Part shown: in pieces, positions 8,148 through 43,595 of the stretch | How the letters are laid out: each line of letters begins with the position of its first letter | How positions within the stretch are numbered: position 1 is the first letter of the stretch | Translations under genes and position numbers: made by a program | Origin: Lingula anatina | Lineage: Eukaryota > Animalia > Brachiopoda | Direction of reading: 5' to 3' | NCBI GenBank assembly: GCA_051362555.1 | Contig: CM120640.1 | Span: 69,976,788 to 70,040,787, forward strand | DNA: 64,000 nt | The notes under the pieces: model-generated | What the model was told of the DNA's origin: nothing | Databases searched by the model: none | What the model saw: only the letters and a program-made list of their open reading frames with translations

Positions 8148-11100
8148 AGCCCCCATTGTGTCCAGGTGGGTGTTCTGCTCCAGTTGATACAGTTGCTGCT
8201 TGATGCCAACCATGGAGCATGAATCAAAGAAATCTGCAGTTTTGACTGAAAAATAAATTCAAATAATTCACCGAACATTATCTTAACAAGTTGTACCGCA
8301 TGTGTAATTTCTGAAGTATTAAGCGTCTTGGTTATTTAAATGCCACTTTCTTTTCAGATCTTAAGCACAAGCGATAAAATTTAAATAAACACATCATTAG
8401 GTCGCAATTTTTAACCTACAAAACATAAAAAGACAAAATAATTTGCACCTCCTCTCCCCTTCAAAAAAAAAAAAAAAAAAGAAATTATTGTTTTAAAATT
8501 TAAAATACAACATGCTATGGAGTGCCGGATAAAAAATCCAAATTGTCAATCAAGTATCGGCTTTTTTCTAAGAATCTACCTGTACATTTCACCTGTATGC
8601 AGCGAGTTAAAGAGGCTTTATGAATATCAACCTTAATTGTCTGGACTCTAACTGATTAGTTTAGTTAGCATATCTGCTGGCTCAAATGGATTTTTGCAAT
8701 AATCATCCTACACTGATCAGGGTAAGGATTCCGACGTCCATATTGGGTTCTTGAAGCCTGAAGGTTATGAGGAGGGCAATGAGTGCAAACTGATGATTTT
8801 AGCTGTCGGTTCAGGTGATTTTTGCTGAGGATTCAGCTTCAGTGACCTCAGATGTTCCTATCTCGTATGGCTTTGTTCTTGATTGTCGTTAAGGACTGCT
8901 ATCCCCAACTGCCTGACTAGAATTTTCTCATATTTCACCCACAGGTGCTGGCCAGCAACCAGCACACGGAGCAGCCAGCTGCCTCTAAGGCAAATTTATT
9001 GAGAGAAAAAAATCTGTACTCATTCCCTCTTTCAGGGAATGGATGTCTGTCAGAAAATGTGTCTAAGGCCAAATGGTGAATATGTGTAAAATAGTTTCAA
9101 GTAGCTCTGTTTGAAATGAGGTTTATTTTTAAGATCGCATTCACGAGTTGAGCCATGGCTTTACAAATCCTGGAACTAAATATGGCGGACGTACATGAAA
9201 GAAAAACCGCCCAATCTTTTAATAGTCTCTTCACCTCTCACACGCCTCCCCATGCGTCATCCCTGCAGGGGTACAGTCATTAAATTTCGGCTCCATTGGG
9301 CCGACACATGGGGAGAAGAAACCGACAGGGCGCTTTAACATCTCAGTCAACAACCTCTGCTACATTTTCCACTTACTAACACTAACGATATCCCTGATCC
9401 AAATTCACTTTCTATGAATTGCATTTAGACCCCAACCAAGCAATAAATACTGCTTTAAATGTCAATATACATCTAAAATATATTGCTGTATACCAATTTT
9501 GCAATCACTTTATGCTTCACAAACTATTTCCTTTTATTCTAAGATGTTCACTAGGTATAAACACACATCATCTCTACCTGATGATTAACCCTGTCAATCC
9601 CTTGGTCTAAATACCCTGACCTTCAGATATGTTTTAATTAAATCCTAGGGGAAGGGCTATTCTCTTGCAGATGTCTGATAGTCGATCCCTATGTTGTTCT
9701 CAGAAAACTGTCTGCAGTTTCATAATAATGCAATCGGATTTTGTCTGGGAAATGATAAATTTACCTTTATATCAAATGCCTAGATTTATGACTTACTTCC
9801 AAAACGAGCACACAGAATCACACATACACGCAAACATGCATGCATGCATGCACTTATACACTGCCATGTGTACATGCACACAAACACAAGTGCACAATAA
9901 ATGGATGTTCCATTCATAACAGATAAATTTTGAATAAAGCAGCTGACACATAGCATATAGATCTTTCTTCACTGTTACCTGGTATTGTCTTTGCTGCAGC
10001 ACATTTATCAGAGTGGTCAAACAGCATGCATCTAGTGTCAGAGAGATATGAGGATTGGGTACTTACTAAACCACGGCCTTTTTCTCCGTGTCTTCTTCTT
10101 TTTCAACATTTTGGTAGGAGTGTTGTCGCTGGACCGAGGTGTTTTTGGCTGGCTAGGGGTTATGATGGTAAAATGACTATTTACATGGCGTTCTAGACCC
10201 GTCTGTGAAGTGAATCGCATTCCACATCCATCCACAATGCATTTGAAAGGCTTGTCTCCGCTGTGATGCAGTATATGCCTCTCCAGCCAATTGTATGAGC
10301 ATGAGGGCTTATTGAACACTTTGCACCCTTCCCACAGACAAACAAATCCGTCTTTATTTCTTTGGCTTTCTACGTGTTTTTCTCGTATATGCTCCATAAG
10401 GAATCGCCCCTCCAGAGTTTGACGACACTCCTTCCATTTACACAATGTTGTGGAGGTCTGTGATTTTGACGAGCCGGGAACCTCGGCGCTGGACTCTCCT
10501 CCGCCATTTGTTCCCTGGCTGGTTTCATCCTGAGAATTGTAGAAGGTATCCTGAGAGACCTCGTTGGACACAGACGCCTCGTTGGGCCCTGATATTGCAA
10601 CAGAGGTGGTGCTGGTTTTGAGACTGAGAGATGTGTTAGAATCATCCGTCATTGAAATCTCAGGCTGAAGTAACGGGTTACTACTGGTCCCACTTGGCGA
10701 TGGTATTGTGGATGGCGGTGACAATGGCGACGATGGAGAAGACCCTGCCAGGGCAGGGGTGCCACCACATTTACATACCATCATTTGTAGAGTATGGTTA
10801 TCGCTTGCTAACAGTTTGATTGGTACATCTATATCACAGCTGTCTGGGGTGGGGGGACCATTTATGACTTTCCTAAAAATGAAAATAACAAAATATTCAA
10901 TTCCCAAAAAATGAAATAATGATTTTCAAAGTAACAGATATATTTAACTGAACAATTTTCAGAATTGCTCTGTATTTCAATACACATGCGTGAATGTTAC
11001 TTATGATGAATATAGAACAATATTACTGTCGTATATAAAGAATTATTGAGGAACAGTGCTTATAATTATAGATCTATGGCAAATCCTACATGTAATTAGG

Positions 11101-17369: not shown

Positions 17370-19871
17370 CTTGTTGACCTCTAAACTTGACCTGGTAAAT
17401 TCAAACGAATGTCTTCATCTTAAAATGGAAGTAGGAAAGTTGAAAAAAAAAATGTCTTTTTGATACTGATATCATCATAAAATACTGGCAACAAAAGAAA
17501 AGTTGCATTTGGCTGAGAAAAACAAGAGAGAACCCTCATAACTCGTGGAGTCCTGGCCAACAGATAAAAGTGGCACTTTTTAAATTTCATCTTGGAAAAA
17601 AAAGGCTAACAAAGAAGAGAAAGAAATGAGCCTGTACTCAAATCCTCAGCATGATGGTTTAACATATACTGGTGTAACTATCAGAACATGCCAACTGGGC
17701 AAAGCCACACATTAGGTCCTTTTAACTTGCACAGCAAAAAAATGAAACCTTTCCTGATCAAAGAAAAACCTCCCGTTATGTCCCATACCTTCTTTCGAGC
17801 CTTTCCAAGTAGAAGTGCTTAGTGCACATTATTATCAAAGTGCTTACATCTTGGTATTTCTGTGCATTTCAAGGTTTTGAAGAAGATTCCTTTTACATTG
17901 GCTTTTAATGGCTAACTCCCTTGTGAAAGGTTTAATCCTATTATAAAAGGTTAACCTATATGGTTTCAAAATGTGTAGAAAACAAGATTGTTGGGGCGCG
18001 GGAGGGGATATGATAATGTTGTCAACTGGAGAAAAAAATAATTAATCACATAAATCCTAAAAACCTACAACTTTGCAAATCAAATTTATGAAACTGGCTA
18101 AGAACTATAAGTGCCCAGCACTATACTGCACATTTGTAAGGAAGACAGGTTTTCCAGTTACCTAATTTTCACATTAAAAGTCCTACCCTGGAAGTGATAA
18201 AAACCTGACACTATAATCAGACATACCAGAAACCCAATTTCCTTCCTAAAAACCATGCTGCTGCAGGTGGAAGAGAACCTTTGAACTGCTTTGTTCCTAT
18301 GAAATGTCTCAGTCTTACTACACATGACATGATGTGCAGAGCTAGATTGACCTGCTTCTATCTGATAACATATATTTACCTGCTGTAGGGTCACTCGGGG
18401 TAAGTTTAAAACACTTGACCCGTTTCATTGTGAAACTTTATAGCAATCAATTAAAAACAAAAACACTGGTTTACCTTCCTGTTTGACAGGTCAGGGCGCT
18501 TTAAACCCATCCTAATTTTTTAGGCTAATGATCAAATTAAACTTCAATTAACCTCCAGTTAAAACTGTAAGAATTATTCTAACAGAACAGGAAACAAGTA
18601 TACTCTGTAGCTTATCGGCAATCAAAACGTTAAGTGACAAAATCCACCCACTATCTTATTATTCAACAAGACCAGTCTGATGTATTTCACTTACTGGCAG
18701 TAACGATCTTTTTCCAATATACAAAATGAATTTGAATAATGACTGTGTGAGAAGCAGAGACAATGCATAAAGTGCTGACTGTTGTTCAATATCTTCAATA
18801 ATTCATAGATAAAGTCTGGTACCTATGCTTAAAATACACTATTCATCTGTATTTTCGGCAAACCTAATATTTTAGCAGGAAGATAAATCTTATTTCTCTT
18901 TGTTATACACACTGCCCTTATTGGCCTTTCTTTACCAGGAATGACACCAGAGATGAATTAAAATGAAAAGAGTAGGAACGCTAACCACAAATGAACAGGT
19001 CCTTTTCACTTATATAAAAAATGCTTCAGGCTTTCTTATTCTAATGGGGAAGATGGTTATTAACACTTAAAAATGTGAATTGTTTTTGTTCACATTCTTC
19101 AATCTCAACAAAAATTAACTTAAAAAATTAATAAAAACTTCAAACTTAGCTGAACACATAACATAATGTATGAAATTAATGAAACAGAAAAATCACCCAG
19201 GTAATCACACATAACTGGCCCCTTTTTTTGTAAAAACTAATCTCAGCCAACTTATCTTGTCCTTGTTACAAGTTTAAAAAATAACCAACTAAAAAAAATG
19301 GTCGTTTTTGCCAGTAATGGTCAACAGCTTTGTATTTAAGTCGTCTCTACTGTAGCCAGCAATCCGTACAGTGTTAATCCTGCCAGGGGCACCACGCATT
19401 GCATGCAACCAGCTTTCTGCAGTTCAAATCTATTATTTACACACCACCTCGCACAGCATACCAACTGAAGAAAAAATTACCTAATAAATTTTAACGAAAT
19501 CTGCCAATCGAGAAAACTAAGCCCTTGTGTACTATGCTAGAAACTTACTCTATAGTTTCTTCTGTTTTATCAGCCTGAGATTGCCTCCTTTTTCTCTTCC
19601 CTTCAAGAGCTATACAATTTCTTCGTACGCGAGATCGAAGTGTTGGTATGGAAGGTTTTGTGAGTTTTGAGAGGCCCCCATTAACACGAACTAACTCCTC
19701 AGTTTTATCCAGGTTACATTCCACCGATTTCGTTGCCTTTTCGCCACGATGGTAACCAGTATGAAATCCATTCCTCTTGCACATTTGGGCGATGGCATGC
19801 ACATGGTTAGTGTAATCAGCATCGTTTTTCCTTCCCCTATTGTCCTCCACGCTCTCCTCCTGGCTCGCCAT
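8121..19871 (-). CDS. AEBP2: Zinc finger protein AEBP2/jing (PRC2 accessory subunit), partial. Exons 19871-19549, 10872-10067, 8245-8121; the last exons were not found and probably lie left of the window
   Basis: Three C2H2 fingers ([68 protein letters not shown]) are followed by a basic KKKKTRRKR patch. The next exon reads IKTADFFDS...GAGNTVTFHST, matching AEBP2 'HDFFD...GHSVVFHST'. GT-AG junctions keep the frame (phase 2, then phase 1). Confidence 0.9.
12943..13119. repeat. 53-bp tandem repeat, about 3.3 copies
   Basis: ATTCAAAAACTTATGTTCAATGAACTAAGCAATAATGTG repeated with period 53. Confidence 0.9.
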
Positions 19872-20037
19872 CTCGGCCTGCAGTCTACGTCACGAAATCC
19901 CGAGCACTTGCTCTGACGTCATCGCTAAGTGAGGGATTTCCCAGACGGGGTGATTCACAAATCTTGTCTTATTTTTTTGTGTTTTTGTTTAAGGATGACC
20001 TGTTCGCGACCGCAGAAGAAATAAGATAACATCGCAG
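19872..20037. promoter_or_regulatory. Bidirectional promoter of AEBP2 and the NEF1-like gene, including a probable non-coding first exon of the plus-strand gene (donor after 20037)
   Basis: CpG-containing island between divergent genes, with CRE TGACGTCA at 19914-19921, kB-like GGGATTTCCC at 19933-19942, YY1-like AGATGGCG over the AEBP2 ATG, and donor CAG|GTTTGT at 20037. Confidence 0.6.
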
Positions 20038-20608
20038 GTTTGTATAGTTCTGCTGTTAGTTGTGTCGTGTTTAAGGCGGTGCGTAAATGTTATGCGCGAA
20101 ATGAAACACGCTTCCGTGCTTTCAAATCCATCTAACTTCTAAGACGGAGGCGGCGTACGCTTGCACTCCAAGGAAAAGGGCAGACATAGCCAGCGGCTGT
20201 GTTAGGGGTGATTAGGGTTAGCGACTTCTAGAAGTGCTTCTTTAGCTAAAGAGGGCAGGGATAAGTGTGAACCATATGTTGGTGTTCACGGTTGGATGCT
20301 TAGGGTGCAGTTGGTGAACTGGATAACAAGGGATGCATTAGAACACGTTCTTGTAGTGCAAGTCGTTTTGAACAAGCTTTAAGACCTAGACCTGCGTGAA
20401 AACCTGCATCAAAAATAACATCAGTTTGCAAAATGTGAAAAGATCTTAAAATTGAGGAGAATATTACTTATTACCCATTACCTATAGACCTGCTTGGCTG
20501 CACCGCAGGTACATGTAAAATGACCTCTCCATAACCATCATTATAGTTATTTAGCCCCACCATTTTCAATAGCTGAAGGTGTGTATATATTATTTCTTTA
20601 TTGCAGAG

Positions 20609-22859
20609 ATGCATCAAAGGACTAGTGCCCCAGCTCAGGATGACCAGGACGCTGGTGACCAGGTACAGCACAGGAGACGACAACAGCCAGAGTGGTTTGA
20701 ACACAGGCAGTTCCAGTACAATGGACGGCTGGTGCTGCCCTTCCTACCTGGACTGGTCATCATGGTTTATCTGGGCGGTGAAGTGTAAGAGCTTTTTAAA
20801 CATATTTCTTTGCCTGTCTGGGTAAGGTCCATGAAGGTCAATCTGTGAAATGATGTGAATATTTACAAGATTTACCTGTATGAACTTCACCATATATGGA
20901 CTGTTGATTTTATTATCAAGCAATGTCTGTGACATCATAGACAACGCAATTAAAATGATTGTTTTTTGATTCCTCAAACCTCATTTGGTAATGTATATGT
21001 AAACAATTTTTTGTGACAAATGACAATTCAAAAAAGGATAAATATTATGGATTGTGAATAATGATAATTTAGTAGTGTACCTGCATAGTCTCGTTTATGG
21101 ATAACACATTTGTAAAATAGAGCTATATATCCATAGCCCTGCAAATAATTCCGTTCTTTATTGTTTATTTATTTATTTGTTTGTTTGTTTGATTGTTTTA
21201 GCTAGAGGCAATATCCCAAATTCTTGTCTTTATATGTTTTTTAATTTAATTTCAGATTGCTTGGTATAGCTTCTGTGGGTGCATGTCTAATTCACATTCT
21301 TGATAGTGTTGGACAGAAAAGAAAGTAAGTGACACATTGTGGAATTGATGAAAAGCTGCCAGGAACCAGCAGTATTTACCTGGCTGGATTCAGAGCCACC
21401 ATTGTTTAGCTGGCTGGACTGTTTCTTAAGTCACTTTAAAGAGAAAACTATATTTTTGACTGGATGGAGCAATAATAGAAAGGAATACAAGTTATATCAA
21501 TGTCTGATTTTTGCTAACATTTAAAAGGTTGACATCGGCTGCATTGGCAACCAGTTGATCCCTGGAATTACTAGTCCGCTGATCAGATATGCCCGCATTT
21601 GACAATGGATTCCCACCTCCCACATTCTGTCCCAGCAGGGACTGAGCAATTAAATCTCAATTAAATCTGAGCAATTAAATCTCAGTGGGTTGTGCCATAT
21701 TTTATACACAAACTAGTAAGTCCCTGGATCAACTGGTTTTGAATGTACCCATTATGAGTACTGAGAGCATTCAAGTTGTAAATGAATTACAATCTCTAAG
21801 GCTTCGTTCACATGCAATGTCTATTTTCTAAATTCTATTTTCTATTTGCGCTATCTTATGATCACGGTCAGTGCCCTGAATATCCCGCCGCGTAATTACT
21901 GGCAGCGCGAGCCAGTTACTTATAGTAACGTATAGTAACTGGCTCGCGCTGCCAGTAATTACGCCGCGGGATATTCAGTGCACAGACCGTGATCATAAGA
22001 CATACCGCAAATAGAAAATAGAATTTAGAAAATAGACATTGCATGTGAACGAAGCCTAATTATCTTCCCAAATATTCTATGGTTGTATGTTCTCATTTCT
22101 AGTGCCCTCATTGCCTATGTTCTGACATTTGTCTGCTGCCAGATGACCATCTTCTACTCTGCTGTTCCCCTGGTCTGGTAAAGTCTGCTGGGCAGAAATA
22201 ATTCATGTCAATTACTAGGGCTGTGCTGGAATATTTTATTATTTTTTGTACCCTCTGAACATTTTTGGCAAAATTAAAAGTATTGTCAGGGTAAATAAAA
22301 TTTTGCCAACTTCAAAGACACAAGGTATTTTGGCAGAAATGTGTAATTAGCATCAGCTCGAGAATTATAAATTGGAACGGGGGATGAAATAATTTATACA
22401 TTTCATTATGGACATGGGGCACTCTATTACAAAGTGATGAATATACTAATGTAATTTTTCATTAAAAGTGTATCATTCAAAAGAACTGTTGCTTTATATA
22501 AAAATTCACTGTATACTTGAATTGAGGTATTTATTCATTTAAAAGTCTTCCCTAAAACCATTTTATCCAAACCAACTGTCTTACATATAGCAAGAGTGGA
22601 TGTACTTTACTTTCATGTTTTTATTTTCAGGCATTCTTTTTTCAATGTGTGTATCATCTCAGCCCTGAACATGCATGCTGTCATGACTGGAGGCTGGATT
22701 CTGCTGCAGTTTGATATTTTAATAGCAGAAGAACCAGAGTTGGCTAAGGTGAATATGAGAAACACTGTTAAATGGGCAATACTTAAATATCACAATCAGT
22801 CACCAACACTCCTGAACAAACACATAGACATGTGTCTGCACACACGCACACATACACAT

Positions 22860-22893
<34 letters not shown>

Positions 22894-23042
22894 AAATTAA
22901 AAAAGAATGTGCCACACCTGAACTTTCCATTAAAAAATTGGTTATGATATGGTCAGTATTCTCTTTTACCTTAGCACTCTGATTTTATTACTAATGCAAA
23001 ATGATTATTAATCAGGAGGGAGGGATGCCTTGAGCAATACTC

Positions 23043-23094
<52 letters not shown>

Positions 23095-25782
23095 GTTTAC
23101 ATGTCATGATGTCAGTTGATATACATTACATTTTCAGATCATCGAAATATTCCTGTTTACTGTGTATCCTTTTGTGTCAACAGTTTTATTAACATGGATG
23201 ACAGCCACCATGATAGAGATAAGCATTGCACCAATTTGTTTCTGTATCATAGGGTAGGTTATACTTGATTATAAAGAATGAAAGTCAGTGGAGAATACAG
23301 CATGAAGAATAAATAGTATAAAATCATATCTTATATCATATTGCACAGTTATGAAATTGTAGTTATTCATATAAAGATTGATAACAACAACCAAAAAAAA
23401 AGATGCTTAGAGAAAGAACATTTGAAATTTGATCATAGGCTCTGTTTTCAGTTTCATATTACTGCAACCATTCATGGTACCAACACGGTCCTCTTTTACC
23501 AAGGATACCACTGCCAGAGACCCCAAGGGGCAGGTGCTAGAACCTGAGACAGTTGCTCTTGTCTTGCTTGCTTACTTGACTACGCCACCTATGGTGCAAG
23601 TGGCTATCACTGCCTGGGAAGATAGATGGAGCCTTCTTCACCTCCAAAATATTGTAAATATGATGGCTTAAAACAGTTATTTATGGAATATTTGTCAGGA
23701 TATATTGTTGATTTGAAGCAGTCATTTCTGTAATGAGACAAGAACCAAATCCAACTAGTTTGTTTTTTAATAAACAACAACAATTTATATTGATTTTTTT
23801 TCTAATTTTTCTTATATGAAGTGTTTCAGTGTCTTTTTTTCAGATTTGTCTCATATTCCTAGTTTTCCTGAGTTTATTTCTTGGAACATTTCTCAGTATC
23901 AAGCAGGTCTTAGATTATGCAGGTAATATACATCTACATGTGTATACATGTTCCGAACAGTTATGTGTAGAAAGACTGTAATTAAAAATTGATTTTAAAA
24001 AGTAAAAAGGAAGATAAAATTTTTATCAGATTTTCTTTGCACATTTGTGTGTGTAAACACTTTTGTAATTTCCCACGAATTTTGAGAAAATTATTTGCTG
24101 AATAATTGTGTTTTGTTGTGGCGTAAACGGGAGTCACCTTGAACAACTTGCCAAGCTATCAGGTTGAACTTTGGAGGATTAACTGACACCATTCCTATAT
24201 TAAGTGGTGTTGACCTGGCATGATTATTAAGTTTGGCAGAAATATATCACTTTTGGAAGATATTAGGGAAATGCATTGGCCACATCTTAGATCCATTATC
24301 CAAGGGAACACTAATAGTAATATATCTCTTAGATTTTATTTTTTTAATATATATATATATATGTATTTTAATAAGATTGATTTTTAGTAGTGTAAATTTT
24401 AAATGGTTTCCAATGAGAGTTTAAAATTAAAATATTGTCATTTTAATGATTTTAGTATATTAGCCATTATTGTAAGGCACCTTGAGATAGAATGTAAGGC
24501 GCCATATAAGAATCTTATTACTATTATTATTATTATTAATTGTAATATTGGCCATTTAAAATAACTAACAAACAATAAATCTTTTCTTTCTTAGGAATAC
24601 AAGAAGTTCAGTTAGGAAGATTGAGGTGGTTTTCACTGGGTGTGGTACTGACCTTGTTAAACAATGTCCTTGGCAGATATGAGATGTCGTCTTATCTGTT
24701 GCCATGGTTACCAGTTGGCATTGGGCTTCATGCTGTATTTGCAATAACTTTACAAAAGAGAAAACATCTGGTATGCAAAAGGCAAAAGTATCAGTTGAGC
24801 ATTCTGACAAACATAAGTATTTTCTTTTTAGTTTTTTTTTCTAACTTGAGTTTTTAAGGTCAAAAGAAACAAACTGAATGTAATATTTTATTGCCTGATA
24901 TAATTATTATTTTGTCATTGTAGCCTCTGTCATGGCTGGTGTTTGGGTGTCTCCTGTTCTACTATGCAGTCATATTTTATCTTATGCCATGGAGGCTTGT
25001 GTATCCTTTGTGTTTGTTTGTGTGTGTGTATTGATTTGTGCTTTAAATAAGTGTATTCTTGTTTGTGTGTCTTGATCATTTAATAAAGACAAAAATATTC
25101 CAGATTAATCTGTATGTCTCAATATATGGGTAATTTATGTCTTTTCCCACAAACCCTATAGGCTACAGGCTATTGGTGCTTATGTCTGAAGGACTTTTTT
25201 TTCAAGTAGTCCACTTTCATCTTTAAATGAACAAATAGCATACCAGTCCTTGACTGACCAACAGCTACTATCTGCCCCGGGTAGGTCTCCACATTGACCT
25301 GGCCCTCTTGCTGGTTCTGTTGTCCATCGCCTTTACTCTTCTGACCACTCTGGCTGCAGTTGGGGACATTTTCGGACTGGTCATCATTTTGTGTGCTTCA
25401 GGTAATGTAATCTCTGCTCTGTTTTAATTGAAAACATTTGTATGAGTCTGTTTTAAAATGTGTGGGGTGAGGGAGGGGAGTGGAGGTCTTATCTCTCCAC
25501 CTATTGAAAACACATCAAGAATCATCATAAATCAAGTTTTCTGGAATCTCAGCTGTTGATATTTTTGTATTGTTATTCCGTTGATGCAAATTCAGTTTTA
25601 TATAGTCCATAATATATATATATATATATATCCCTGTGTGTGGTTCCAGTGTTTGTGATGTGTGAAGTGGTGCTGCAGGCAGGACATCTCTACAGTGCAC
25701 CGTTGTTAGCTGTCTCGGGGTTTTTGGCTTCATATGCTGTGATCAAGTAAGTCGACTACGTTATTATGTTCTTTGCCATGTG

Positions 25783-25844
<62 letters not shown>

Positions 25845-28800
25845 CTTTACCAAAGCACATCTGTGATTATATATTGAGTCTGGATGAGGTATAGTTTCAG
25901 TTGAAAATTGGAGGGGAAAAAAGCCATGTTAAATATCATAATTCAGGAGCTGTTAACCCGTCCTACCATTCCAGGTTGTACCATGCAGGGAAGATAGCCT
26001 GGTTTGTGGCCTGGCTAGTGGTGTCCATTCAGTTTGTGAAGGTGCCCAGTGTCACCCACCTGTACAGAGTGACCAGTGAGTGGACCCTGATGATGTCTGT
26101 ACAGGAGAGGATAGGAGTTCTGCTGACTGCTTTAGTTGTCACCAAAATACACCTGTTTGAGAAAAGAAAGCAATTATCAATGAATGTGGTAGGTTTATGT
26201 GGAAAATGAAGAATAGGTGTGTTAGGATTGGTGTTTCAATTTAAGGATTTAAGGCTTGGTTCATTCAGTGTTTACAAAAAGAGGTTCTTAGTTCTCATTT
26301 TGAAAAGAAGTTATTTTCATTGCTCTCTCTTGCAGTCATGAGTGTAATCCCATTTTAAGCTTCTGTCAAAACAGTCCTAATACAGAGTAAGATCTTACTA
26401 AGTGTCTTCCAAACAGACACTTGTGTACAAATTGCATGCAATATTTTGTAATTATTTCCCAAAAAGCATTTAAGCTGAAATCAGAGCTTTCACTAGTGTT
26501 TTCATAGCTAACATATTTGTCCTCTGTTTTCAGGTGCTGGCATATTTTATCAGCACAGGATTGGCAGTAGCACTCAACGTGCAGCCTTTCCTGCAACCAC
26601 TGCTGCACTCTATAGTCCAGGAAGAGCCAGACATACTGGATGTACTGGGTAAGACACACTGACATGTTTTAAAATGTCTATGTTTTGACTCAGCCTGCTT
26701 TGGTAGCTATAAATTTCAACATTTTTTTGTTTGTGTGTGTGTGACAGTGCATGAATTTTACAATTAACCTCTAATACTGACTTTTCTAGGTACTGTCTTC
26801 CTGCTGTGGGGGTTACTGCTGCTGAAGCTGACCATGTTCCATACAGTCAGTGCTCCAGTGTTGAGACACCTGGCTCCTGCCCTCCTCCTCATGGGGATTG
26901 CTGTTCTGGACAGTCCTTGGTAAGTGTCTCCTGCCCTCCTCCTCATCCTCATGGGGATTGCTGTTCTGGACAGTCCTTGGTAAGTGTCTCCTGCCCTCCT
27001 CCTCATGGGGATTGCTGTACTGGATAGTCCTTGGTAAGTGTCTCCTGCCCTCCTCCTCATGGGGATTGCTGTACTGGACAGTCCTTGGTAGGTGTCTTCT
27101 GCCCTCCTCCTCCTCCTCCTCATGGGGATTGCTGTACTGGACAGCCCTTGGTAAATGTCTCCTGCCCTCCTCCTCCTCATGGGGATTGCTGTACTGGACA
27201 GCCCTTGGTAAATGTCTCCTGCCCTCCTCCTCCTCCTCATGGGGATTGCTGTACTGGACAGTCCTTGGTAAGTGTGGCGTGCCCTCCTCCTCCTCCTCCT
27301 CCTCCTCCTCATGGGGATTGCTGTACTGGACAGTCCTTGGTCAGTATTTTCTCCTCCTCCTCCTCCTCCTCATGGGGATCGCTGTACTTGACAGTCCTTG
27401 GTATGTGTCTCCTCTTTATTTAGTCTTTAACGAAGAACGCTCAGTGACGCTTTTACTAACGTACTCACTTATGACTTGTTTACAAACTCCTTGACCTTTT
27501 TTGGGATGCTACCTCTTGAACACAAACCCCCCAACTTTTTCATATGCTTTACTCATATGGTAAGCAGATTTTGTCTTACAATTTTTATCAAAATTACTAG
27601 GACAGAAATGGTGTTTCTGAACTGAGAGAGCCTCCTTAAGTTCTATCCTGTACACATGTTCAGATACTTAATTTCATTTATAGGATGCTTGGGTTGGTGG
27701 TTAGTCTGTATGTCACAGTGATTGCAGTGTCACAAAAATGGACGTCCAGATCTGCCCTCCTCAGGGCCATCTTAGCCATTTGTGTAGGCATACCCGTGGG
27801 GATGCTGGTGGTGCTGTATGTAAGTATTTGGAGGGGAAATTGTTGTATTACTGTTGGATCTTGTAACGACTTATTTATTTGTAAGATTGAAAAATACATG
27901 TATGCTTTTGTATAACTGAAAACTAATTGATTGAAAAACTGGGGAAAAACATCCTAGTCTATGGTACTGTATAGTATTGGCAGGAAATATCATCAAGAAA
28001 GATCACAACAGGCAATTTTAATTCTGTTTTTTAGTTCACTGAGGAGTCAGTTGTTGGTCCTGGCATCTGGCTGGCAACCTGCGCACTCTCCTTCCTGGTC
28101 ACATTTTCCTTCCTCACAGTGTACGAGAGCAACAAGAACTGTGACATGATCTTGACATATTGGTCAGTATTTAGTTGTGAGATTAAAGCATGTGTTCATG
28201 TATGTTTTCTATAGCTTTTTTGGTATCATCATATTTGCTTCATTTTTTTAAATCATGGGATTTTATTTTGAAAGTCCTCATCAAGGGATAAACCTCTCAA
28301 ATTGTTTTCCAGTTGGGTTTTGATAACTATATTGGATGTGGTACTCTTGGCTCTGGATGCCAGTGTCTGGGGTTTGAAGGGACTTGGTGAAGGTTCAGCA
28401 CTCCACATATCATCCTTCACTTGGACTGGAACAGCAGCAGTGTTTAAATTACATGCCACAAAGAACAAGGTCAGTTCTTACTTCATACAACATTCCTTAC
28501 GGTTTATTCCCAATGAAAGTATTGTTCTATGTAGATTGATCCAACTCTGCCAATGAGATTAATATACCACAGTCTGTCCACAGACCATCTAAAATGAATC
28601 AAAGATTTAACAAAAAAATTGCTATCTCTTTAAATATCAATTAGGTTCAAATAACTATTCAGATTGTACTGTTAAGCTTATAATATTATCTTTCAAGCTG
28701 TATCACAAATAGCTATTCATGGCCACTGGTTTAATAAAATGCAAGTAGTTTCTGCTATCACATGATTAAAGTTGTGCTGAATTCACATGCTGAAGTCGCA

Positions 28801-29507
28801 TATTTTCAGAGCCCAGATTTGTTATCGGGAGCAGTGTCAGGCCCTCCTTGGGTGCCACTGTTTGGAAACTTGGCAACATTGGCATCATTTATCAGCCTTT
28901 GTTTGGCTTCTGACCCAGAAAACATGGATGGATGGGTAAGATATTTAGCGTTTTGACACAAATGGCCACTTTCAGATTATATCAGTTTTTTGTTTAATAC
29001 TTCAGTAGCTACTACCACTAGTCAAAACCAGGCTTCATCACAGTTAAAAGCAAAATATTTAATTGCAATCAGCTATATAAAATTATTGCATAATTTCTCT
29101 CATTTCAGATACTGGGTTGCTCAGCAGTTTTTCTTCTTCTCCAAAATGATGGCATTTGTATCTCTTCTCTCCATCATTCTAACCAGAAAGTTCCAACAGT
29201 TTGCACAGCAGCAGTATATATCCTAGCTCAAACGGTCTGGGCCAGCAATATTTGGTTACCTAAAAAAACATTCCTCAGGACACTACAGGGGGCGCTAGAG
29301 TCAGCAATACTGCTCTTAACTTTACCAGTGCTTCTTGCCTATTGCACCACAGCTTGGTCGGGGAAGAAGCTATTTTCTAATAAACTCATTGCCTTTCTGC
29401 TACCACTGTTCTCTCTTTTGATACTGTTTGGGAGTAGCTTTTACAGTACTGTTTACTCAGGTATAGGCCTGCTTATGGGAGGATGGGTTTTAACAATTAA
29501 GACGTGA
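20609..29507 (+). CDS. Polytopic membrane protein, NO EXINE FORMATION 1 (NEF1)-like, about 908 aa. Exons 20609-20784, 21256-21324, 22103-22177, 22631-22748, 23138-23253, 23452-23653, 23844-23922, 24595-24770, 24924-25000, 25265-25401, 25650-25746, 25975-26188, 26534-26648, 26790-26919, 27684-27819, 28035-28162, 28313-28469, 28810-28935, 29109-29507
   Basis: Nineteen GT-AG-bounded exons join into one 2727-nt open frame with many hydrophobic helices. Motifs FQYNGR..LP..LGG, GGWILLQF..EEP, PTRSSF, LYHAGKI..AWL, WVPLFGNLATL, FLLLQND and AILLLTLP occur in the same order as motifs I recall from Arabidopsis NEF1. Confidence 0.8.
21800..22056. mobile_element. Near-perfect palindromic MITE (PIF/Harbinger-like) with TAA target-site duplication
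   Basis: TAA|GGCTTCGTTCACATGCAATGTC...GACATTGCATGTGAACGAAGCC|TAA; arms of about 120 bp pair almost fully. Confidence 0.9.
23045..23093. repeat. (TA)n microsatellite
   Basis: Direct reading. Confidence 0.9.
25001..25264 (+). other. U12-type (minor spliceosome) GT-AG intron in the NEF1-like gene
   Basis: 5' site |GTATCCTTT; branch site TCCTTGAC at 25247-25254, 10 nt upstream of the 3' splice junction; no polypyrimidine tract; splicing keeps the frame. Confidence 0.85.
25783..25844. repeat. (ATT)n microsatellite
   Basis: Direct reading. Confidence 0.9.
26875..27412 (+). repeat. About 54-72-bp minisatellite (9 units) made of the NEF1-like exon end plus splice donor, with variable (CCT)n
   Basis: CCTGCC(CTC)nATGGGGATTGCTGTWCTGGACAGTCCTTG|GTAAGTGTCT repeated; the first unit is the coding exon end at 26919. 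Confidence 0.95.
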
Positions 29508-31118
29508 TAAAAAAAATAAAGGAAAATTTCTGACAAATGCTGTTATTGTTTATCTGTTGCATAGTTACCAACATAAAAACACTATATATGTAGGCCTATT
29601 TTGCACAATCAAATAACAAATGAAAATAATGGGAACTGATGCTAGAAAAATCATAGAACTTCCACATATTTGCACAATTAACAGTCCTGCTGCTTTACTT
29701 TTTATTATCTTTCCCAAACCAATATCCAGATAATACTACTTAGTATAAATGCTTGTCTTTAAAGAAAGTGGTGCTGGGAAGAATGGAATAGCCTAATATT
29801 AATACTTTTACACTTTGATTTTAAAAACCTAGAAAGAGAGGCTAAGGAGAAAAGAGCACAAATAATGAAATGGTTGAACTAGGGTAATGAGTATCTTTAT
29901 ACAAAAAATTATTCATTCAGAATGCTTTGCAATTTTTTTTCCTTCAAGTGCGTTGGAAAGTTTTGTCTCTTTAGACTGTACAAATCTTCAGTTTCACTTG
30001 CTTTAGTGTTAGATTCTTTGTTACAAATTGTTAAAGGAAGTGTTCAAAAGACTTGAATAAGCCATCTAAATGACAAGCATTGAGATCATCCAGAATAAAA
30101 AAATTAACCAACATTCTTTGAACTTGAATATATTTATTATTTATAAAATAACCATGTACAACTTGTCTAGGCAACAACCTTTTACTGTACACTAAACCAG
30201 AGAAAAAAAGCAAGAGGATGTCTCATCAAACCAACGACCAAGGAATCAACACATGGCGACAGATGGCAAACAATAGCGCACCAATTAATAGGGATAACGT
30301 AATAACTTACTTGGTTACATAAATCTTTGCTGCACACAGTTTATATGACAAAATGCAGGCTATTGGCATCTGTGCAGCTGATCAAATGAATCTGCAGGCA
30401 GTTTCTAAACTACGCTATAATATTGGTAGTAAGAAACAGTAAAACATACTTAGCTGTAGCATCATATTACTTTGGACGTACAACCTTAATTTTTCTGTAC
30501 ATTTTATTTGATACTTTTAACACAGTATACAGCTGAGTTTCCTATCTTAACCTATACTTTCACTACAGTTTAACTTTCAGGTTAGTTAAATACGACATGT
30601 CTCAGATGTAGTGCATGCGAAAAGGCAATTTACTTCAGAGGGAAAGTATTTTTTAAAACTCCAACTGTTGTGTACAAAGCTGGTTTCATTTACATATTCC
30701 ATGTAAATGAGTTAACGGAAATCACAGCTTCAAGTGCAGTGTACTATTCAGTGTAGAGTTCTGACAACATTCCCACCAATTAACAGAAACGTGCCAGCTG
30801 TCACTGTTCATTTCAATTATTGTTTACAACAATCTAAAACATTTGATCTAGGAAAATAGTCCACCAAACAGTACTTTGTTACTGCTTCATAATTCAAGGC
30901 TAACAAAAAACCCTTGCTGGCCCTCATGATTTCAAAGAGAGGCCTTTCTTCGGATAAGTCATCACAATTTAGCAAACAGTTCAAAGGGCCCCAGACCTCT
31001 GTTATAATTTCCTGCCTGGTGGTGTGCAATTGAAAAACGCCAATCAAGACCTTACTACTGTATTTGCACAGTACAATCAGACAGGACAGAAATAATACAT
31101 GAAGCTTTTCTTTCCTCT

Positions 31119-37961
<6,843 letters not shown>

Positions 37962-38347
37962 GGTAGTTTATATTGTCCCTTTGAACTATTGAATATGTCC
38001 TGATTGTATTTGTGCTTATCACTGGACACTAGGGTTTATTATTTCACTTTATCTATAAAAAGTCGGTGGTTCCTGGTTCTGCAACATCTAACATGGCGAT
38101 TCCTGGTTTTGACGTCATCATCACATGAGCACCTGCATATCGCTTAAAACAATAAAAAAAGTCTCAATTGAAATCAATCATTTAGTTCGTTCAGAGACTT
38201 CTTTGCAGAGTTGATAAACTTTGGTGTTGTCTAATGTATAATATTTCTTAAACATAAAATTTATTTTTGGATACCTTTTAAAGAAATTGATTATGATTCG
38301 AACTATTTTTGAACATCTGAAGCGACAAAATATCACGTCATGTCAAC
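37962..38347. promoter_or_regulatory. Bidirectional promoter of RAB21 and TBC1D15
   Basis: 386 bp between divergent ATGs, containing YY1-like AACATGGCG at about 38090, CRE TGACGTCA at 38110-38117 and M-box/E-box TCACATGA at 38121-38128. Confidence 0.65.
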
Positions 38348-41300
38348 ATGGATGATCAAAAACAGGTTGGGTTATCTGTGGTATTTAATGAGGACGAATT
38401 GCGTCACATAGTGTTTGGCTAATTAAGTTGTTACATGTATTTAATTGCTTACACGCGAGAAGGTTAGTTGTCGAATGATGGGTTGTTTTATTTTTAATTC
38501 AAAAGCTTAAACATGTCTATAAACTACATGTAGCATGATATATATTACCATTAATTGGTTACATGTACACTCGTATTTAATTAATTTTTTACTTCTCAGT
38601 TTGCTTTACCATTTGCTTGCGTATGTGATGGTGATTCAGCTTAACGTGGAAAACACTCAGTTGTTTATATTGGTCTTACTTTGTCATCCACTTCAGGTGT
38701 AAATCTGATCAGTATTAAATACAGTTGTCAAGGTCGGATCACATACTTAAAGTTTCAAAATGGCAAGCGGTGGAAAGAAAGAAGCCGCAGTAAAGAAACG
38801 TGGATACATAGGAAATTCTGTGAACTGGATGACAAAGAAGATCCAAAATCGGGCCACCCACAATCTTTCCAGGGGAAATATGAAATCAGGACCCAGGGTA
38901 AAAAATATGTAGTTTCATCTATGCTGTCTTGCACTGTTCTGTTCCTAGAGGGCATTCCCAGAGATTTAGATCGACCTAACTCCCTGGGGTTCACGCTAAA
39001 AATTGCAGTCAGCCGACCACACATGGAAGTTAATTACCCCCTTACAGCTTGTAGTAGGTGGGACGAACATTTAAGCCCAATGATCTGACAGTAATCTAGT
39101 GAGACTCTCCATGGGGATAGATCGATCTAAAATCTATGGGAATGCACCCTTAATGTGATAGTTAGGGTTCTTAGGTACAGGAGTGGTAATGTGGAGAGAT
39201 TCTTCATATCATATGCTGGAATCAAAATGTTAAAAAAGTTTTGAAGGTCAATACACATGGCAATTATTGGCATTATAAACATTAACTGGAAGAATATATC
39301 CTTCACTATATATATATAGAGTATGATTTAAAAAAGAATATTTCTTTATGATTTGAGGTGTATTCCTGTACCATGTAGCTGTATTTAGTCTTTATAGTCC
39401 TTGATAGTGTAGTGTGTGCTTACCTGCAGAAGTTAACTTTTAAATGAATATCTTCCAATGGGACATTACTTGTCCTCCTGCTTGAAGAATGAATTACTTT
39501 GTGTCAGACTTCTCAAAAGGAAGGACATATTTTACAATGCAATTATTGTTTTTGTTGGAGAAAAATGTTTGATTTCTTATAATTATGTAGTCATGTGTTT
39601 AAATTATGGGAATGTGTCTGCGTAAAAAAGATTAATACCATTGATTGAACTATAAAGCTAAACAATATTTTTTCATGATACTTTTTATGATTGGTTTTAA
39701 TTCATTGACAATCCTAACACATACCTTATGCATATAGCTGTGTTTTTAGACATCATTTGCTTTTATACTATTTATAATCGCTTTCATTTTGGTCTTTTAT
39801 TAATATATTTAAAAAATTTTTCATGATTTTAATGGCACATGGAATGGACTTTTTAATCAGAATAGCTTAATTTACTACTGTTTTCTGTTTTCTGAGCATG
39901 CTAATGATGCTGGTGTGTGCTTTAATGCCACACGCACAGGTTTACATTATTTTCACTGAAGTGGGCTTAAATATGATTCTTTCAGGTGATTTACCAGAAA
40001 GATGGGGTATACATCCACACCATTGTCCACAATGAAGATGAAGATGCCCTGATTGAGGGACAAGTAGAGATCCTGGAAAAGGTGAGCTCAGATATCGCAT
40101 TTGGCAGTTCTGTGAATAATAAGTATTTGTTTTTCTATTCACTATTTCTGTGTCATTCAGATTAGATTTATTCAGAAATGATGTGTAAAATGTGAGGGTC
40201 ATGTGTAAGATAAGTGTGTGCACTTACCCTCTTTAAATAAAGATTTATTATTATTATTATTATTATTATTGTGTTGTGTCCCCTCAGCCCCAGGGTGTAT
40301 TCATTGAGTGGAGATCTGTAGCAGATATGGCAGCTGAGTATGCTGTGAACCCCAAACATGAGCAGGACTCCTGGGCCGTCATTGACGCCGTCGGATACAG
40401 GAATGAGAGCCAGGGATCTGAGACAGGTGATTTGAGTGGAGAAGATTGACAGTCTAAAATGGGCCTTTATTTATTTCATATAGTTATTTATTTTTTGTAA
40501 AATTTTGTTTCTATTAGATATATTGATATTTAATGTAATAATTATTTATTTTAAACTTTTATGAAGCAGGCCCTCTGTCTGTCCTTTTAGACATCATTCT
40601 AAATCATCAAATCTCGAAAATTATGTGTTGAAAGTAAACTTTCTCTACCCATTTTCTTTGTAGGGTCTGCAACTATTCAGACAAGAAGACCCAAGCAGAT
40701 TATCAGTTTTGATATTAAAGATTTAAAGAGCTTCAAGCGGTCAAAGCAGAGTTTGGGATGGTCATACATAATCTTTATCCAGAAAGATGGGACGACACAT
40801 CCAGCATTGCACTTCCACAAAGGTGGCAGCCGAGAAATGATAAATTCCATGGAGAGGTTTTTGTCAGTTCAGAGGTAACTCTCATACCTCAATGTTCAAA
40901 TTTGTAAAGCTTTTTGTGCCTCTCATGTATCTTAGACTTAAATGTATCTTAGACATTTTAGTAAAATTTTCAAGATCTGAGGGGAATTACTATTTGTTAA
41001 GACAAATTCTAGCATATATTGAATAAGGTAATGGGCATGGTTAGTTTATGATATAGGGCTGCCAGAATTGAATATATGTTCATGCTCAAATGCCTCTTCA
41101 TATAAATTTTAAAGTACAAAGTTGACTGCTCACACACTGATATCTTAAGGTGTGAGTCTCTTGGGAAATATATTAGATTTGAAACCCTTCAGATTTTTTC
41201 TTGATAATTTACTTGTTATATATCATATGTATCTTGTTAAATCAGAATTTTATTTTCCTTGTCAGGTCTCCAAACACGCCTGGTCTCTTTTTGGTACATG

Positions 41301-43532
41301 AGCATGACCCTGGAGCACTTTCAAGGTCATTTGATGAGCTACAGCTCTTCAAAGAAACTTCACAAGATTTGGTGTCTGTAAGTAATAAGTCATTTTCACT
41401 TAATCATATTTCATTAAGGAGAAGATATTTAGGTAAGGCAAGTGATGCATTTAAAATATATAATTAAATAGGAATTAATATTTTTGTATTTCAAACTTTT
41501 TCAGAAATTTGTCAAAGATCCCTATTCAACAACGCTGACAGGGTTTTCCAAAGTAACCAAGTTTTTAGGAGAGGTCCTGATGACCACAGATACTCCACCT
41601 GTACGGCCCTCAGAGGAGGTGGCGGACATTTTACATGAAGCCATCCCCGGTATCACCATCAATGCACAGGATGAGCCAGGATTTGATATTGTCAGCAAAG
41701 TAAGAGTTGTACTTATAATGATAATATTTTTGCATGTTTTATATTTTTTGTCACTGTTTGTTACACCTGATTGTGAAAGTTTTTCTAGGTATGAAAGAAT
41801 GTGGAATTAAAGTCGGCAAGGTTCAGTGAAAAGATTTTTCAAATCTAAAATAGATCTGGCAGTGGTTTCCACCAGGTGGTTTTATTTTCAGCTTTTGACC
41901 AGTTTGTAGACCAGAAGAAATAATGAAATCATCATGCAAATATTATTTCTCACCTGTTTCACTGCTTTTATCAATTCATGAACATCAGTTGGAAAAGATA
42001 TCTCTGTTTTTGATTTCAGTGTGAGCTTGCTGAGCGTCCTGATGTCGTGAGGTCATCCCCCTTGTCCAGACTGCAGTGGGAGAAGAACATGGATAGTGAG
42101 GGCAGGATACAGAATGTGGATGAACTACAGGAGATCATATTTAGAGGGGTAGGTTTGTGCTTAAACCACATCCAGCTGGGACTTGACAAATTATCCTTAC
42201 TGGCCATAGATGTTACTGTGTTAGGGATCATCCATTTTTGTCATCATTTTCACAAGTCTATAAACCATATGCTGGATGAGAGTTAAGGCCCACTGCACAC
42301 TTTTGCAAAAAAAAAAAAAAGATGATCCAAATTGCTGTCAAAGTTTATCATTTTGAGCTTTTCATTTTGTTCTCTGAAGGGGGGGGGTCTGGAGAAAGTC
42401 TACTCTTTGTTGTAGATCATTTGTGAAAATGATCATGATAAAAATGACCCCTTATTAAAATAATACAGCTTATTCTGCCTTGACCAGTTTTATCTAACAG
42501 ACACATAAGACTGTGAAATGCACTCTACACTGACCAATGCATAGTGTGTATTCTTAAGATATTCAACTTTATGCTGCATACAGTTTGTGTTCGTTAATAA
42601 GGTTCCAGGGCAGTATAAACAGCTAAAGTAAGATTTTCAGTACTTATACAACCTTGGTCCAACTGTTTAAATTTAGTTTCAAAGGTAGAAAGAGTAAAAT
42701 TTTATTTATTTTTATTTTATTTATTTATTTATTTTTATGTAGGGAATAGAGCCTAACCTGAGGAGAGAAGTGTGGAAATTTCAGCTCCAATACTATGACT
42801 GGAATTCAACATCAAAACAGAGAGAAGAGGTCAGGAAAAAGAAAGTGTAAGTTAAACCAAATAAAAGAAATAATTCCAACTAAAATGCTCTATTGTATTG
42901 GTATAGTTAGTATGTAAAATAATACATTTTCTATCTGTGTTCGGAGCCAATGAAATATTTTGCTTACTTCATACTTTAATTCATTGTTTTAATTGTATCT
43001 CTTATGTATCTTTTAGTGATGACTACTTTAGAATGAAACTTCAGTGGAAGTCAGTCACAGAGGATCAGAAGATGAGATTTTCAGTTTTAAGAGACCGTGA
43101 AAGTCTCATAGGTAAGTGTTGCCTAAAGCAGGCAGAACTTAACTCTATATGCAACCCTTTTTTCTTGCTCCATTAGTTATTATGAAGATCTGTATCATCA
43201 TGTATTACAGCCCTTTTACACACTATTACTAGAACTTGAGTAGAAATATTAAACAAGTAATATAAAATAGGATTGAGAAATTACACAAAACAGGTGTTCA
43301 GGTGTTATGCAGATGAAACCATCTATTACAGTTAACTTTCATCAAGAAAGTGCATGTTTATTTTCATTTTCACAGATAAAGATGTGACCAGAACAGACCG
43401 TACCCAGACGTACTTCATGGGGGACCCAAACCCCAAACTGGAACTGTTAAATGACATTCTGATGACATACTGCATGTACAACTTTGATTTGGGTAAGCAA
43501 AAGACATAGATTGCCTTTGACCCTCTGGTAAT

Positions 43533-43595
<63 letters not shown>

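What the first reader, a model, noticed from the sequence alone, without database searches (positions are those of the whole stretch)
20609..29507. Animal homolog of plant NO EXINE FORMATION 1 (NEF1): an intact, intron-rich polytopic membrane protein of unknown function
Seen: 19 exons splice into an approximately 908-aa, highly hydrophobic ORF that the ORF track misses. Recalled knowledge: Arabidopsis NEF1 is a membrane protein needed for tapetal lipid accumulation and pollen exine formation. Collinear matches (this protein vs NEF1 from memory): FQYNGRLVLPFLP..LGG vs FAYNGRIAIALVP..LGG; GGWILLQFDILIAEEP vs GCWTSLQFKWLQLENP; VPTRSSF vs IPRVSSF; KLYHAGKIAWFVAWL vs RLFADHRIGQKAVWI; WVPLFGNLATL vs WMPSFGNVATI; FLLLQND vs LLLLNQD; AILLLTLP vs ALLILTAP. 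I know of no characterised counterpart in human, fly or worm. Inference: an ancient eukaryotic membrane lipid-handling or transport family retained in this animal lineage and lost from model animals. The many introns and the U12 intron argue against contamination or recent horizontal transfer.
Basis: partly seen in the sequence, partly recalled or inferred. Interest (0 to 1): 0.85.

Follow-up and report, generated by a model that had tools for sequence, protein, structure and literature searches.

The report
Plant pollen-wall protein family in animals
This expressed 19-exon brachiopod gene encodes a full-length relative of the plant pollen-wall protein NEF1, with further relatives in corals, molluscs, annelids and sea urchins; it is predicted to cross the membrane about 30 times and likely moves or binds lipids in internal membranes, which would make a supposedly plant-plastid protein a general eukaryotic one.

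Summary
The gene is real. Nineteen exons give a 908-aa frame; RNA reads show 17 of 18 coding junctions in the listed rows, including the U12 intron. It matches NCBI's uncharacterised Lingula anatina LOC106174833 at 907 of 908 residues. Homology to NEF1 is full length: animal versus plant/protist profiles give probability 100, E 1e-62; each third matches, reversed controls do not. It is not a lineage oddity: named relatives span 18 animal genera in six phyla, and their tree follows animal phylogeny; others occur in stramenopiles and an amoeba. None of 21 named look-ups was vertebrate, arthropod, nematode or fungal; that loss is not proven. The model gives about 30 membrane helices, no soluble domain, no Pfam family and no conserved His or Cys. 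The best fold match (adenylyl cyclase membrane anchor, Z 9.3) is weak. Most likely an ER/endomembrane lipid-moving protein (inferred, about 0.35). Vertical descent from early eukaryotes is favoured; ancient transfer into the animal stem is not excluded (0 of 3 plant introns shared; AU p 0.036 and 0.091). No paper found linking NEF1 to animals.

The parts
19960..20037 (+). 5' untranslated exon (3' end fixed; extends at least to about 19960, start not mapped)
   Evidence: Junction 20037 to 20607 in 4 of 4 runs, up to 74 letters on the shorter side; an in-frame stop precedes the ATG at 20609 (sequence)
20609..20784 (+). Coding exon 1 (aa 1-58): Arg-containing N-terminal tail, conserved F35/N38/R40, helix 1
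21256..21324 (+). Coding exon 2 (aa 59-81)
22103..22177 (+). Coding exon 3 (aa 82-106)
22631..22748 (+). Coding exon 4 (aa 107-146): conserved W129, Q133, F134
23138..23253 (+). Coding exon 5 (aa 147-184): invariant E149
23452..23653 (+). Coding exon 6 (aa 185-252): conserved P195, S198, S199, F200
23844..23922 (+). Coding exon 7
24595..24770 (+). Coding exon 8
24924..25000 (+). Coding exon 9
25001..25264 (+). U12-type GT-AG intron
   Evidence: 5' site and branch box; junction read in 8 of 8 runs
25265..25401 (+). Coding exon 10
   Evidence: 5' junction; 3' junction not among listed rows
25650..25746 (+). Coding exon 11 (aa 409-440): conserved E414, Y423
25975..26188 (+). Coding exon 12 (aa 441-512): conserved K463
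26534..26648 (+). Coding exon 13
26790..26919 (+). Coding exon 14
26881..27413 (+). Tandem array, about 9 copies of the last ~40 nt of exon 14 plus its donor site; listed junctions use the first donor only
27684..27819 (+). Coding exon 15
28035..28162 (+). Coding exon 16
28313..28469 (+). Coding exon 17
28810..28935 (+). Coding exon 18 (aa 735-776): conserved P750, N754
29109..29507 (+). Coding exon 19 (aa 777-908) with stop

Best explanation
The gene is an intact, spliced, expressed animal member of the NEF1 family; its product is predicted to be an all-membrane protein of about 30 helices that likely sits in the ER or secretory membranes and likely binds lipids and moves them across or within the bilayer without using ATP. 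Shown: gene, transcript, full-length homology, range across six animal phyla and several protist groups. Predicted: 30 helices, both ends in the cytosol, a conserved polar cluster on the cytosolic face of the first six helices (F35, N38, R40, W129, Q133, E149, S198, S199, F200) and a second one in the outer part of helices 13-15 (E414, Y423, T/S431, K463). Inferred: ER location, lipid substrate, passive mechanism, and inheritance from early eukaryotes with losses in vertebrates, ecdysozoans and fungi. On this reading the plant defect in tapetal lipids and exine is the tissue-specific result of losing a general membrane-lipid function. Family membership is near certain (about 0.97); the confidence given is for the mechanism.
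For: Homology: single-sequence hits to plant proteins at E 3e-7 to 2e-5 in 5.8 billion sequences, one labelled 'No exine formation 1' by its source; top ESM Atlas cluster has that name, score 0.88, a lead only; profile-profile probability 100, E 1e-62, 870 columns; residues 30-300, 301-600, 601-908 match separately at E 2e-31, 5e-20, 6e-16, reversed controls at E 0.3-0.7. Architecture: AlphaFold model pLDDT 80.5, almost all helix, no globular domain; N-terminal module pLDDT 95.5; with 30 helices chosen by me from that model, family-mean Lys+Arg sums to 27.7 in the 16 inside loops and 6.7 in the 15 outside loops (summed). Location: named relatives in an animal host, the stramenopile Cantina and the amoeba Luapelamoeba (that these lack plastids is recalled), so a plastid-only role cannot hold for the family; RR or RxR within the first 14 residues in 7 of 21 animal and 9 of 28 other full N-termini against shuffle means 1.8 and 3.8, the kind of motif that gives ER residence (PMC2799409, passages). 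Substrate: nef1 plants lose tapetal lipid accumulation and sterol esters (PMC12346373, passage). No His or Cys conserved at 70% over 58 rows, which argues against common membrane enzymes.
Against: No call tests lipid binding or movement. The plant phenotype may be indirect, and one paper proposes polysaccharide transport instead (PMC9681927, passage). Reviews call NEF1 a plastid membrane protein (PMC3220415, PMC6136457, passages); the primary paper could not be read. The Arg motif is weak: related sequences are not independent, most members lack it, and this protein has its RRR at 22-24, outside the window counted. Conserved E414 and K463 inside the membrane suit an ion-coupled transporter equally well. 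For origin: no fungal or unicellular holozoan member was named among 21 named look-ups, 0 of 3 plant intron positions are shared, and an animal-plus-amoeba clade was rejected at p-AU 0.036 with Cantina in the set, though not without it, 0.091.
Confidence: 0.35

Rival explanations
1. It is an ion- or proton-coupled secondary transporter of a small solute (sugar, nucleotide sugar, lipid head group), with E414 and K463 as the coupling pair.
For: E414 (93% of 55 rows) and K463 (94% of 54) lie within predicted helices 13 and 15, with conserved Y423 and T431 close in sequence; helix 15 is weakly hydrophobic (family mean 0.7). Polysaccharide-precursor transport has been proposed for plant NEF1 (PMC9681927, passage).
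Against: No internal repeat was detected among six segments (the one high score is the overlap of two segments), whereas most secondary transporters have one (established knowledge). Thirty helices is far more than usual.
Confidence: 0.2
2. It is a membrane scaffold or lipid sensor rather than a carrier: the N-terminal helical module binds a lipid, as the adenylyl cyclase membrane anchor is reported to, and signals to a cytosolic partner through the conserved cytosolic-face residues.
For: The N-terminal model's best match among 48,161 chains is human adenylyl cyclase 5 (8sl3_A, Z 9.3, rmsd 5.4, 200 aligned, the only chain at Z 8 or more; next 7.2), with a second cyclase (6r3q_A, Z 6.7) at rank 9; the full model gave the same region Z 9.6. 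Those anchors are reported as fatty-acid receptors (PMC11606603, abstract). The best-conserved residues are predicted to face the cytosol.
Against: The tool warns that Z under about 13 for helical bundles may be a common arrangement; identity is 7%, rmsd is high; designed repeat proteins score as high on the full model. The function of the cyclase anchor is itself called an open question (PMC12414865, abstract and section 5). The protein has no effector domain.
Confidence: 0.2
3. It is a membrane-embedded enzyme of lipid or glycan metabolism (acyl or glycosyl transfer), with invariant E149 as a catalytic acid.
For: E149 is present in 56 of 56 rows with a residue there; sterol esters fall in nef1; a short stretch (397-500) aligns with the C-mannosyltransferase DPY19 at Z 8.1 over 101 residues.
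Against: No conserved His or Cys; no large luminal loop of the kind GT-C enzymes carry (longest outside loop 22 residues); E149 is predicted on the cytosolic side; the DPY19 match is short, 3% identical and within background.
Confidence: 0.1
4. On origin: the animal genes descend from one ancient horizontal transfer from a stramenopile or other protist into the animal stem, before cnidarians and bilaterians split, rather than by vertical descent from early eukaryotes.
For: No fungal or unicellular holozoan member among the 21 named look-ups; 0 of 3 land-plant intron positions match any of the 18 here; the free trees do not join animals with the amoeba, and that clade is rejected at p-AU 0.036 in a 14-row set.
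Against: Not rejected once the long Cantina branch is removed (p-AU 0.091, 12 rows); animal branches are long and composition is uneven; animals do not nest inside any sampled group; three introns is a weak sample; 83 of 113 hits were not looked up and several deep unnamed ones could be opisthokonts.
Confidence: 0.25

Closest known systems
NEF1, NO EXINE FORMATION 1 (Arabidopsis AT5G13390) and its plant and algal orthologues
   Same: Collinear homology over the whole length; shared motifs at F35/N38/R40, W129-F134, E149, P195-F200, E414, Y423, K463, N754, D790; no Pfam family on either side.
   Different: About 200 residues shorter; lacks a plant insertion of about 60 residues after residue 302 and most of a loop near residue 592; 18 coding introns against 3 in land plants, none at the same place; host has no plastid, tapetum or exine.
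Membrane anchor of mammalian adenylyl cyclases (AC5 8sl3, AC9 6r3q)
   Same: Best, but weak, structural match to the first 284-residue module (Z 9.3, rmsd 5.4, 200 aligned).
   Different: No cyclase domains, 7% identity, no sequence-profile hit in the PDB search; about 20 further helices.
ATP-independent lipid scramblases and all-membrane lipid-handling proteins of the ER (for example TMEM41B/VMP1, TMEM16; recalled, not from a call)
   Same: Proposed working principle only: polytopic, no nucleotide-binding domain.
   Different: No sequence or fold match to them was found; much larger.

Membership tests
NEF1 family | Significant sequence homology over the full length | tested here: met
   Profile-profile probability 100, E 1e-62; each third significant, reversed controls not; a source labels one hit No exine formation 1. 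Arabidopsis NEF1 itself was not fetched.
NEF1 family | Very large all-membrane helical architecture without soluble domain | tested here: met
   AlphaFold model; 21 segments by a strict hydropathy cut, about 30 by model plus positive-inside alternation.
NEF1 family | Conserved family motifs | tested here: met
   58 positions share the top residue at 60% or more in both 28 animal-clade and 30 other rows; motif blocks.
NEF1 family | One-to-one orthology (single copy) | not testable with these tools
   No whole genome is held for this window; the animal rows form one clade that follows the species tree.
NEF1 family | Plastid location and role in tapetal lipid accumulation and primexine (plant literature) | not testable with these tools
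   Cannot apply literally to an animal; stated in reviews; primary paper not held.
Membrane adenylyl cyclases | Two cytosolic class III cyclase domains | tested here: not met
   No loop longer than about 30 residues in the model; no Pfam hit.
Membrane adenylyl cyclases | Six-plus-six helix membrane anchor fold | tested here: inconclusive
   Z 9.3, rmsd 5.4, 200 aligned, 7% identity; below the tool's bar for helical bundles.
ABC exporters | Nucleotide-binding domain in the chain | tested here: not met
   No soluble domain in the model; only short bundle matches to BmrCD and ABCD1.
His- or Cys-dependent membrane lipid enzymes (MBOAT, desaturase/hydroxylase, CREST, DHHC) | Conserved catalytic His or Cys motifs | tested here: not met
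   No His or Cys column at 70% or more among 58 aligned rows.
GT-C glycosyltransferases | GT-C membrane fold with a large luminal catalytic loop | tested here: inconclusive
   101-residue match to DPY19 at Z 8.1; no large outside loop predicted.
Lipid scramblases or transfer proteins | Lipid movement in reconstituted membranes | not testable with these tools
   Needs an assay.

The most novel reading that the evidence does not exclude
NEF1 proteins are an unrecognised lipid scramblase or lipid-transfer machine of the ER, as old as the last common ancestor of eukaryotes, with a 30-helix fold not yet in the Protein Data Bank whose first module is a distant relative of the adenylyl cyclase membrane anchor; vertebrates, arthropods, nematodes and fungi lost it, which is why it has been filed as a plant plastid protein.
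Probability: 0.15. Interest if true: 0.8.

Novelty: new member of a known kind. Interest (0 to 1): 0.5.

Why it matters
NEF1 was described as a novel plant protein and is cited as a plastid membrane protein needed for pollen walls; its molecular job is still unknown. Intact, conserved copies in corals, molluscs, annelids, ribbon worms, brachiopods and echinoderms, and in heterotrophic protists, mean that the job cannot be specific to plastids or exine. That redirects the question (general endomembrane lipid or solute handling), supplies invariant residues to mutate (E149, E414, K463, N754), a compact 908-residue version for structure work, and animal systems with knockdown tools (Lytechinus, Capitella, Biomphalaria). 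The limit: the gene is already annotated as an uncharacterised protein, and automatic family databases not searched here may already group it with NEF1.

Tried and rejected
Pfam: nothing significant for 17 exon pieces, the whole protein, 21 plant/protist members (an RWP-RK domain in 2 of them is outside the homologous part as far as seen, not followed up) or 31 animal/protist members. PDB by sequence profile: one weak partial hit at E 0.014, none. Foldseek on both models: no match at E 0.001; this does not show the fold is new. ESM Atlas on residues 28-300, named clusters: no usable hit; its own structure of the protein is poor (pTM 0.27), so its structure rows were ignored. A word-index search with a 31-row profile returned only 2 proteins, fewer than the single-sequence HMMER search, so it says nothing on range. 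Prokaryote genomes and viral contigs: 30 and 20 pattern matches, none confirmed; patterns were narrow, so weak evidence of absence. Internal repeats: none. The AU test on the 35-row tree did not finish; smaller sets of 14 and 12 rows were used. No RNA holder was listed by index; the nine runs were added by species label, and tissues are not given, so tissue expression could not be assessed. Alternative exons considered and rejected: an acceptor at 25161 and one at 27602 (stops in frame; reads skip them), and use of downstream repeat donors in intron 14 (no listed junction). Contamination or a plant/algal contig: rejected, neighbours are a C2H2 zinc-finger gene, a Ras-family GTPase and a TBC-domain gene and reads of the same species label are spliced. 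Literature: no paper held NEF1 + exine + metazoa, NEF1 + exine + Dictyostelium or a PANTHER family number that I recalled; 18 papers with NEF1 + no exine formation, 8 with AT5G13390 and 6 with NEF1 + primexine are plant or algal by their listings; none of the 15 listed of 1,480 held the gene name. The library lacks most subscription journals, and supplements were not searched. No complex prediction was run, as no binding is claimed.
Full report
The observation. Reading 19500-30500 and its three frames gave 19 plus-strand exons. Snapped to AG and GT they join into 2727 nt, 908 residues and one terminal stop, GRAVY 0.87. Eight RNA runs from three studies, added by species label, were laid: 12 coding junctions are listed and five more, 17 of 18 in all, each at the predicted base. 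Intron 10 is not among the listed rows, but both tables were truncated. Reads also show a 5' untranslated intron (20038-20606), and an in-frame stop upstream makes 20609 the first usable ATG. Depth is low to moderate in all eight runs; tissues are not given. Intron 9 is U12-type by 5' site and branch box, alone among the 18, and its junction is read in all eight runs. A search with the last exon returned a 908-residue NCBI/UniRef protein named uncharacterised LOC106174833 of Lingula anatina, identical to my splice at 907 of 908 residues. That record probably derives from the same genome, so it is not independent; the reads are.

Is it NEF1? The single sequence finds four plant-type proteins at E 3e-7 to 2e-5 among 5.8 billion, one labelled No exine formation 1 by its source, and the top ESM Atlas cluster bears that name (0.88, a lead). 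These hits cover only about a fifth of the protein. A profile of 29 animal-clade rows against one of 21 plant, algal and protist rows gives probability 100, E 1e-62 over 870 columns. Hydrophobic proteins can match by composition, so I split the animal profile: residues 30-300, 301-600, 601-908 and 740-908 match collinearly at E 2e-31, 5e-20, 6e-16 and 7e-14, while the reversed plant profile gives E 0.26-0.68. Fifty-eight positions share their top residue at 60% or more in both 28 animal-clade and 30 other rows. Homology is therefore full length. Plants carry an extra stretch of about 60 residues after position 302. Arabidopsis NEF1 itself was not fetched; membership rests on labelled orthologues.

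Range. HMMER over 1.84 billion representatives gave 113 hits. I looked up 30; 21 carried an organism. Seventeen are animals: Owenia and Capitella (annelids); Haliotis, Patella, Biomphalaria, Plakobranchus, Babylonia, Nucella, Mactra and a cuttlefish (molluscs); Tubulanus (nemertean); Anneissia, Acanthaster, Lytechinus, Diadema (echinoderms); Oculina and Xenia (cnidarians). Four are protists: Cantina, Phaeothamnion, Chrysoparadoxa (Cantina and Chrysoparadoxa confirmed as stramenopiles) and Luapelamoeba (an amoebozoan, recalled; not in the taxonomy copy). None is a vertebrate, arthropod, nematode or fungus, and unnamed long animal-clade proteins nest beside named molluscs, echinoderms, annelids or cnidarians. 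That is consistent with loss from those groups but does not prove it: 83 hits were not looked up and the search used one sequence.

Origin. In an IQ-TREE mixture-model tree of 35 of the 58 long rows, 14 animal-clade rows form one side of a branch (SH-aLRT 99), cnidarians apart from bilaterians (98), with echinoderms (98) and molluscs (100) as groups and this protein next to Owenia and Tubulanus. So the gene dates at least to the cnidarian-bilaterian ancestor, and the neighbours in the window are ordinary animal genes. Deeper history is open. Plant genomic loci show three introns, after residues 408, 598 and 672 of the Nelumbo protein, mapping to about 320, 502 and 573 here; none matches any of the 18. 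An animal-plus-amoeba clade is rejected at p-AU 0.036 with the long Cantina branch present (14 rows) and not rejected without it (0.091, 12 rows); the 35-row test did not finish. Presence in plants, stramenopiles, an amoeba and animals favours an early eukaryotic gene with many losses (about 0.75); one ancient transfer into the animal stem remains possible (about 0.25).

Anatomy. AlphaFold on the animal alignment gives mean pLDDT 80.5, pTM 0.61, nearly all helix and no globular domain. A strict hydropathy cut finds 21 segments; the model suggests about 30. Taking 30 with the N-terminus inside, family-mean Lys+Arg totals 27.7 in inside loops and 6.7 in outside loops (summed), which supports that count and both ends in the cytosol. 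Conserved polar residues fall in two groups: N38, R40, Q133, E149 (56 of 56 rows), S198 and S199 on the predicted cytosolic face of helices 1-6, and E414, Y423, T431 and K463 in or near the outer part of helices 13-15; N754, D790 and K727 lie in the C-terminal third. No His or Cys is conserved at 70%. No internal repeat was found. Di-arginine motifs near the N-terminus are enriched over shuffles (7 of 21 and 9 of 28; a looser pattern in the same call was chosen after seeing the data and is not relied on), a weak hint of ER residence (PMC2799409, passages).

Fold. The N-terminal 284 residues, folded with 85 rows, reach pLDDT 95.5. Their best match among 48,161 chains is the membrane part of human adenylyl cyclase 5 (Z 9.3, rmsd 5.4, 200 aligned, 7% identity), alone above Z 8, with a second cyclase at 6.7; the full model gave 9.6 for the same region but ranked designed helical repeats higher. 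The tool cautions that such Z values in helical bundles can reflect a common arrangement, so this is a lead. It is an intriguing one, since cyclase anchors have been reported as fatty-acid receptors (PMC11606603, abstract), although their function is still described as open (PMC12414865, abstract and section 5).

Mechanism. What is in print on NEF1 is a phenotype: defective primexine, loss of tapetal lipid accumulation and lower sterol esters, with a plastid membrane label (passages in PMC3220415, PMC12346373, PMC6136457), a proposal of polysaccharide transport (PMC9681927, passages), and a Chlorella homologue (PMC4928020, passages). The primary paper was not held. Given an all-membrane protein with no ATPase, no catalytic His or Cys, presence in plastid-free hosts and a lipid phenotype, I commit to an ER or secretory-membrane protein that binds lipids and moves them passively (0.35). 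Rivals are an ion-coupled solute carrier using E414 and K463 (0.2), a lipid sensor or scaffold (0.2) and a membrane enzyme (0.1). All of these are inferred; none was tested.

Novelty. The family is named and the gene is annotated as uncharacterised, so this is a new member of a known kind. Seven searches of the held library found no paper placing NEF1 in animals; subscription journals, supplements and family databases such as PANTHER or InterPro were not covered and may already list such members. The value lies in removing the plant-and-plastid frame from an unexplained family and in offering residues, a shorter protein and animal models for testing.

Noticed in passing
window 26881-27413: About nine tandem copies of the end of exon 14 with its splice donor. 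Listed junctions use only the first donor. At this same junction the protein lacks 10-12 residues that five other animal proteins have; whether the two facts are linked is unknown.
   Followed up: partly
window 21799-22057: A near-perfect palindromic element of about 260 bp in intron 2, with many reads that run on into unrelated flanks: likely a high-copy miniature inverted-repeat transposon.
   Followed up: partly
window 24437-24500: A short intronic stretch with reads on both strands and loose ends, likely another dispersed repeat.
   Followed up: no
window 19545-19890 (minus) and 10038-10925 (minus): An open frame with a Met near 19870 and opposite-strand reads lies head to head with the 5' exon of this gene; further on is a C2H2 zinc-finger exon that resembles AEBP2/Jing (recalled). 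They may be one gene sharing a bidirectional promoter.
   Followed up: no
window about 31100-37970 (minus) and about 38700-45700 (plus): A Ras-family GTPase gene (looks like Rab21, recalled) ends tail to tail with this gene and lies head to head with a TBC-domain Rab GAP gene (looks like TBC1D15/17, recalled): a Rab beside a Rab GAP.
   Followed up: partly
window 31787-32706: Two near-identical copies of a stretch of at least 330 bp, 584 bp apart (seen as twin frames), inside the GTPase gene.
   Followed up: no
runs X7-X9 against X1-X5: Reads of study P3 differ from the window at many more fixed places than those of P1 and P2, so the species label covers clearly diverged populations; the listed junctions are the same.
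   Followed up: no
proteins P0041, P0046, P0053 and about 14 more: Short hits that match only from residues 777-794 to the end, the extent of the last exon here; their best named matches are molluscan, which suggests that the last intron position is shared across animals.
   Followed up: partly
alignment A2, rows 8 and 10 (P0094, P0089): Two plant/algal-type NEF1 proteins also carry an RWP-RK domain; fusion or merged gene models.
   Followed up: no
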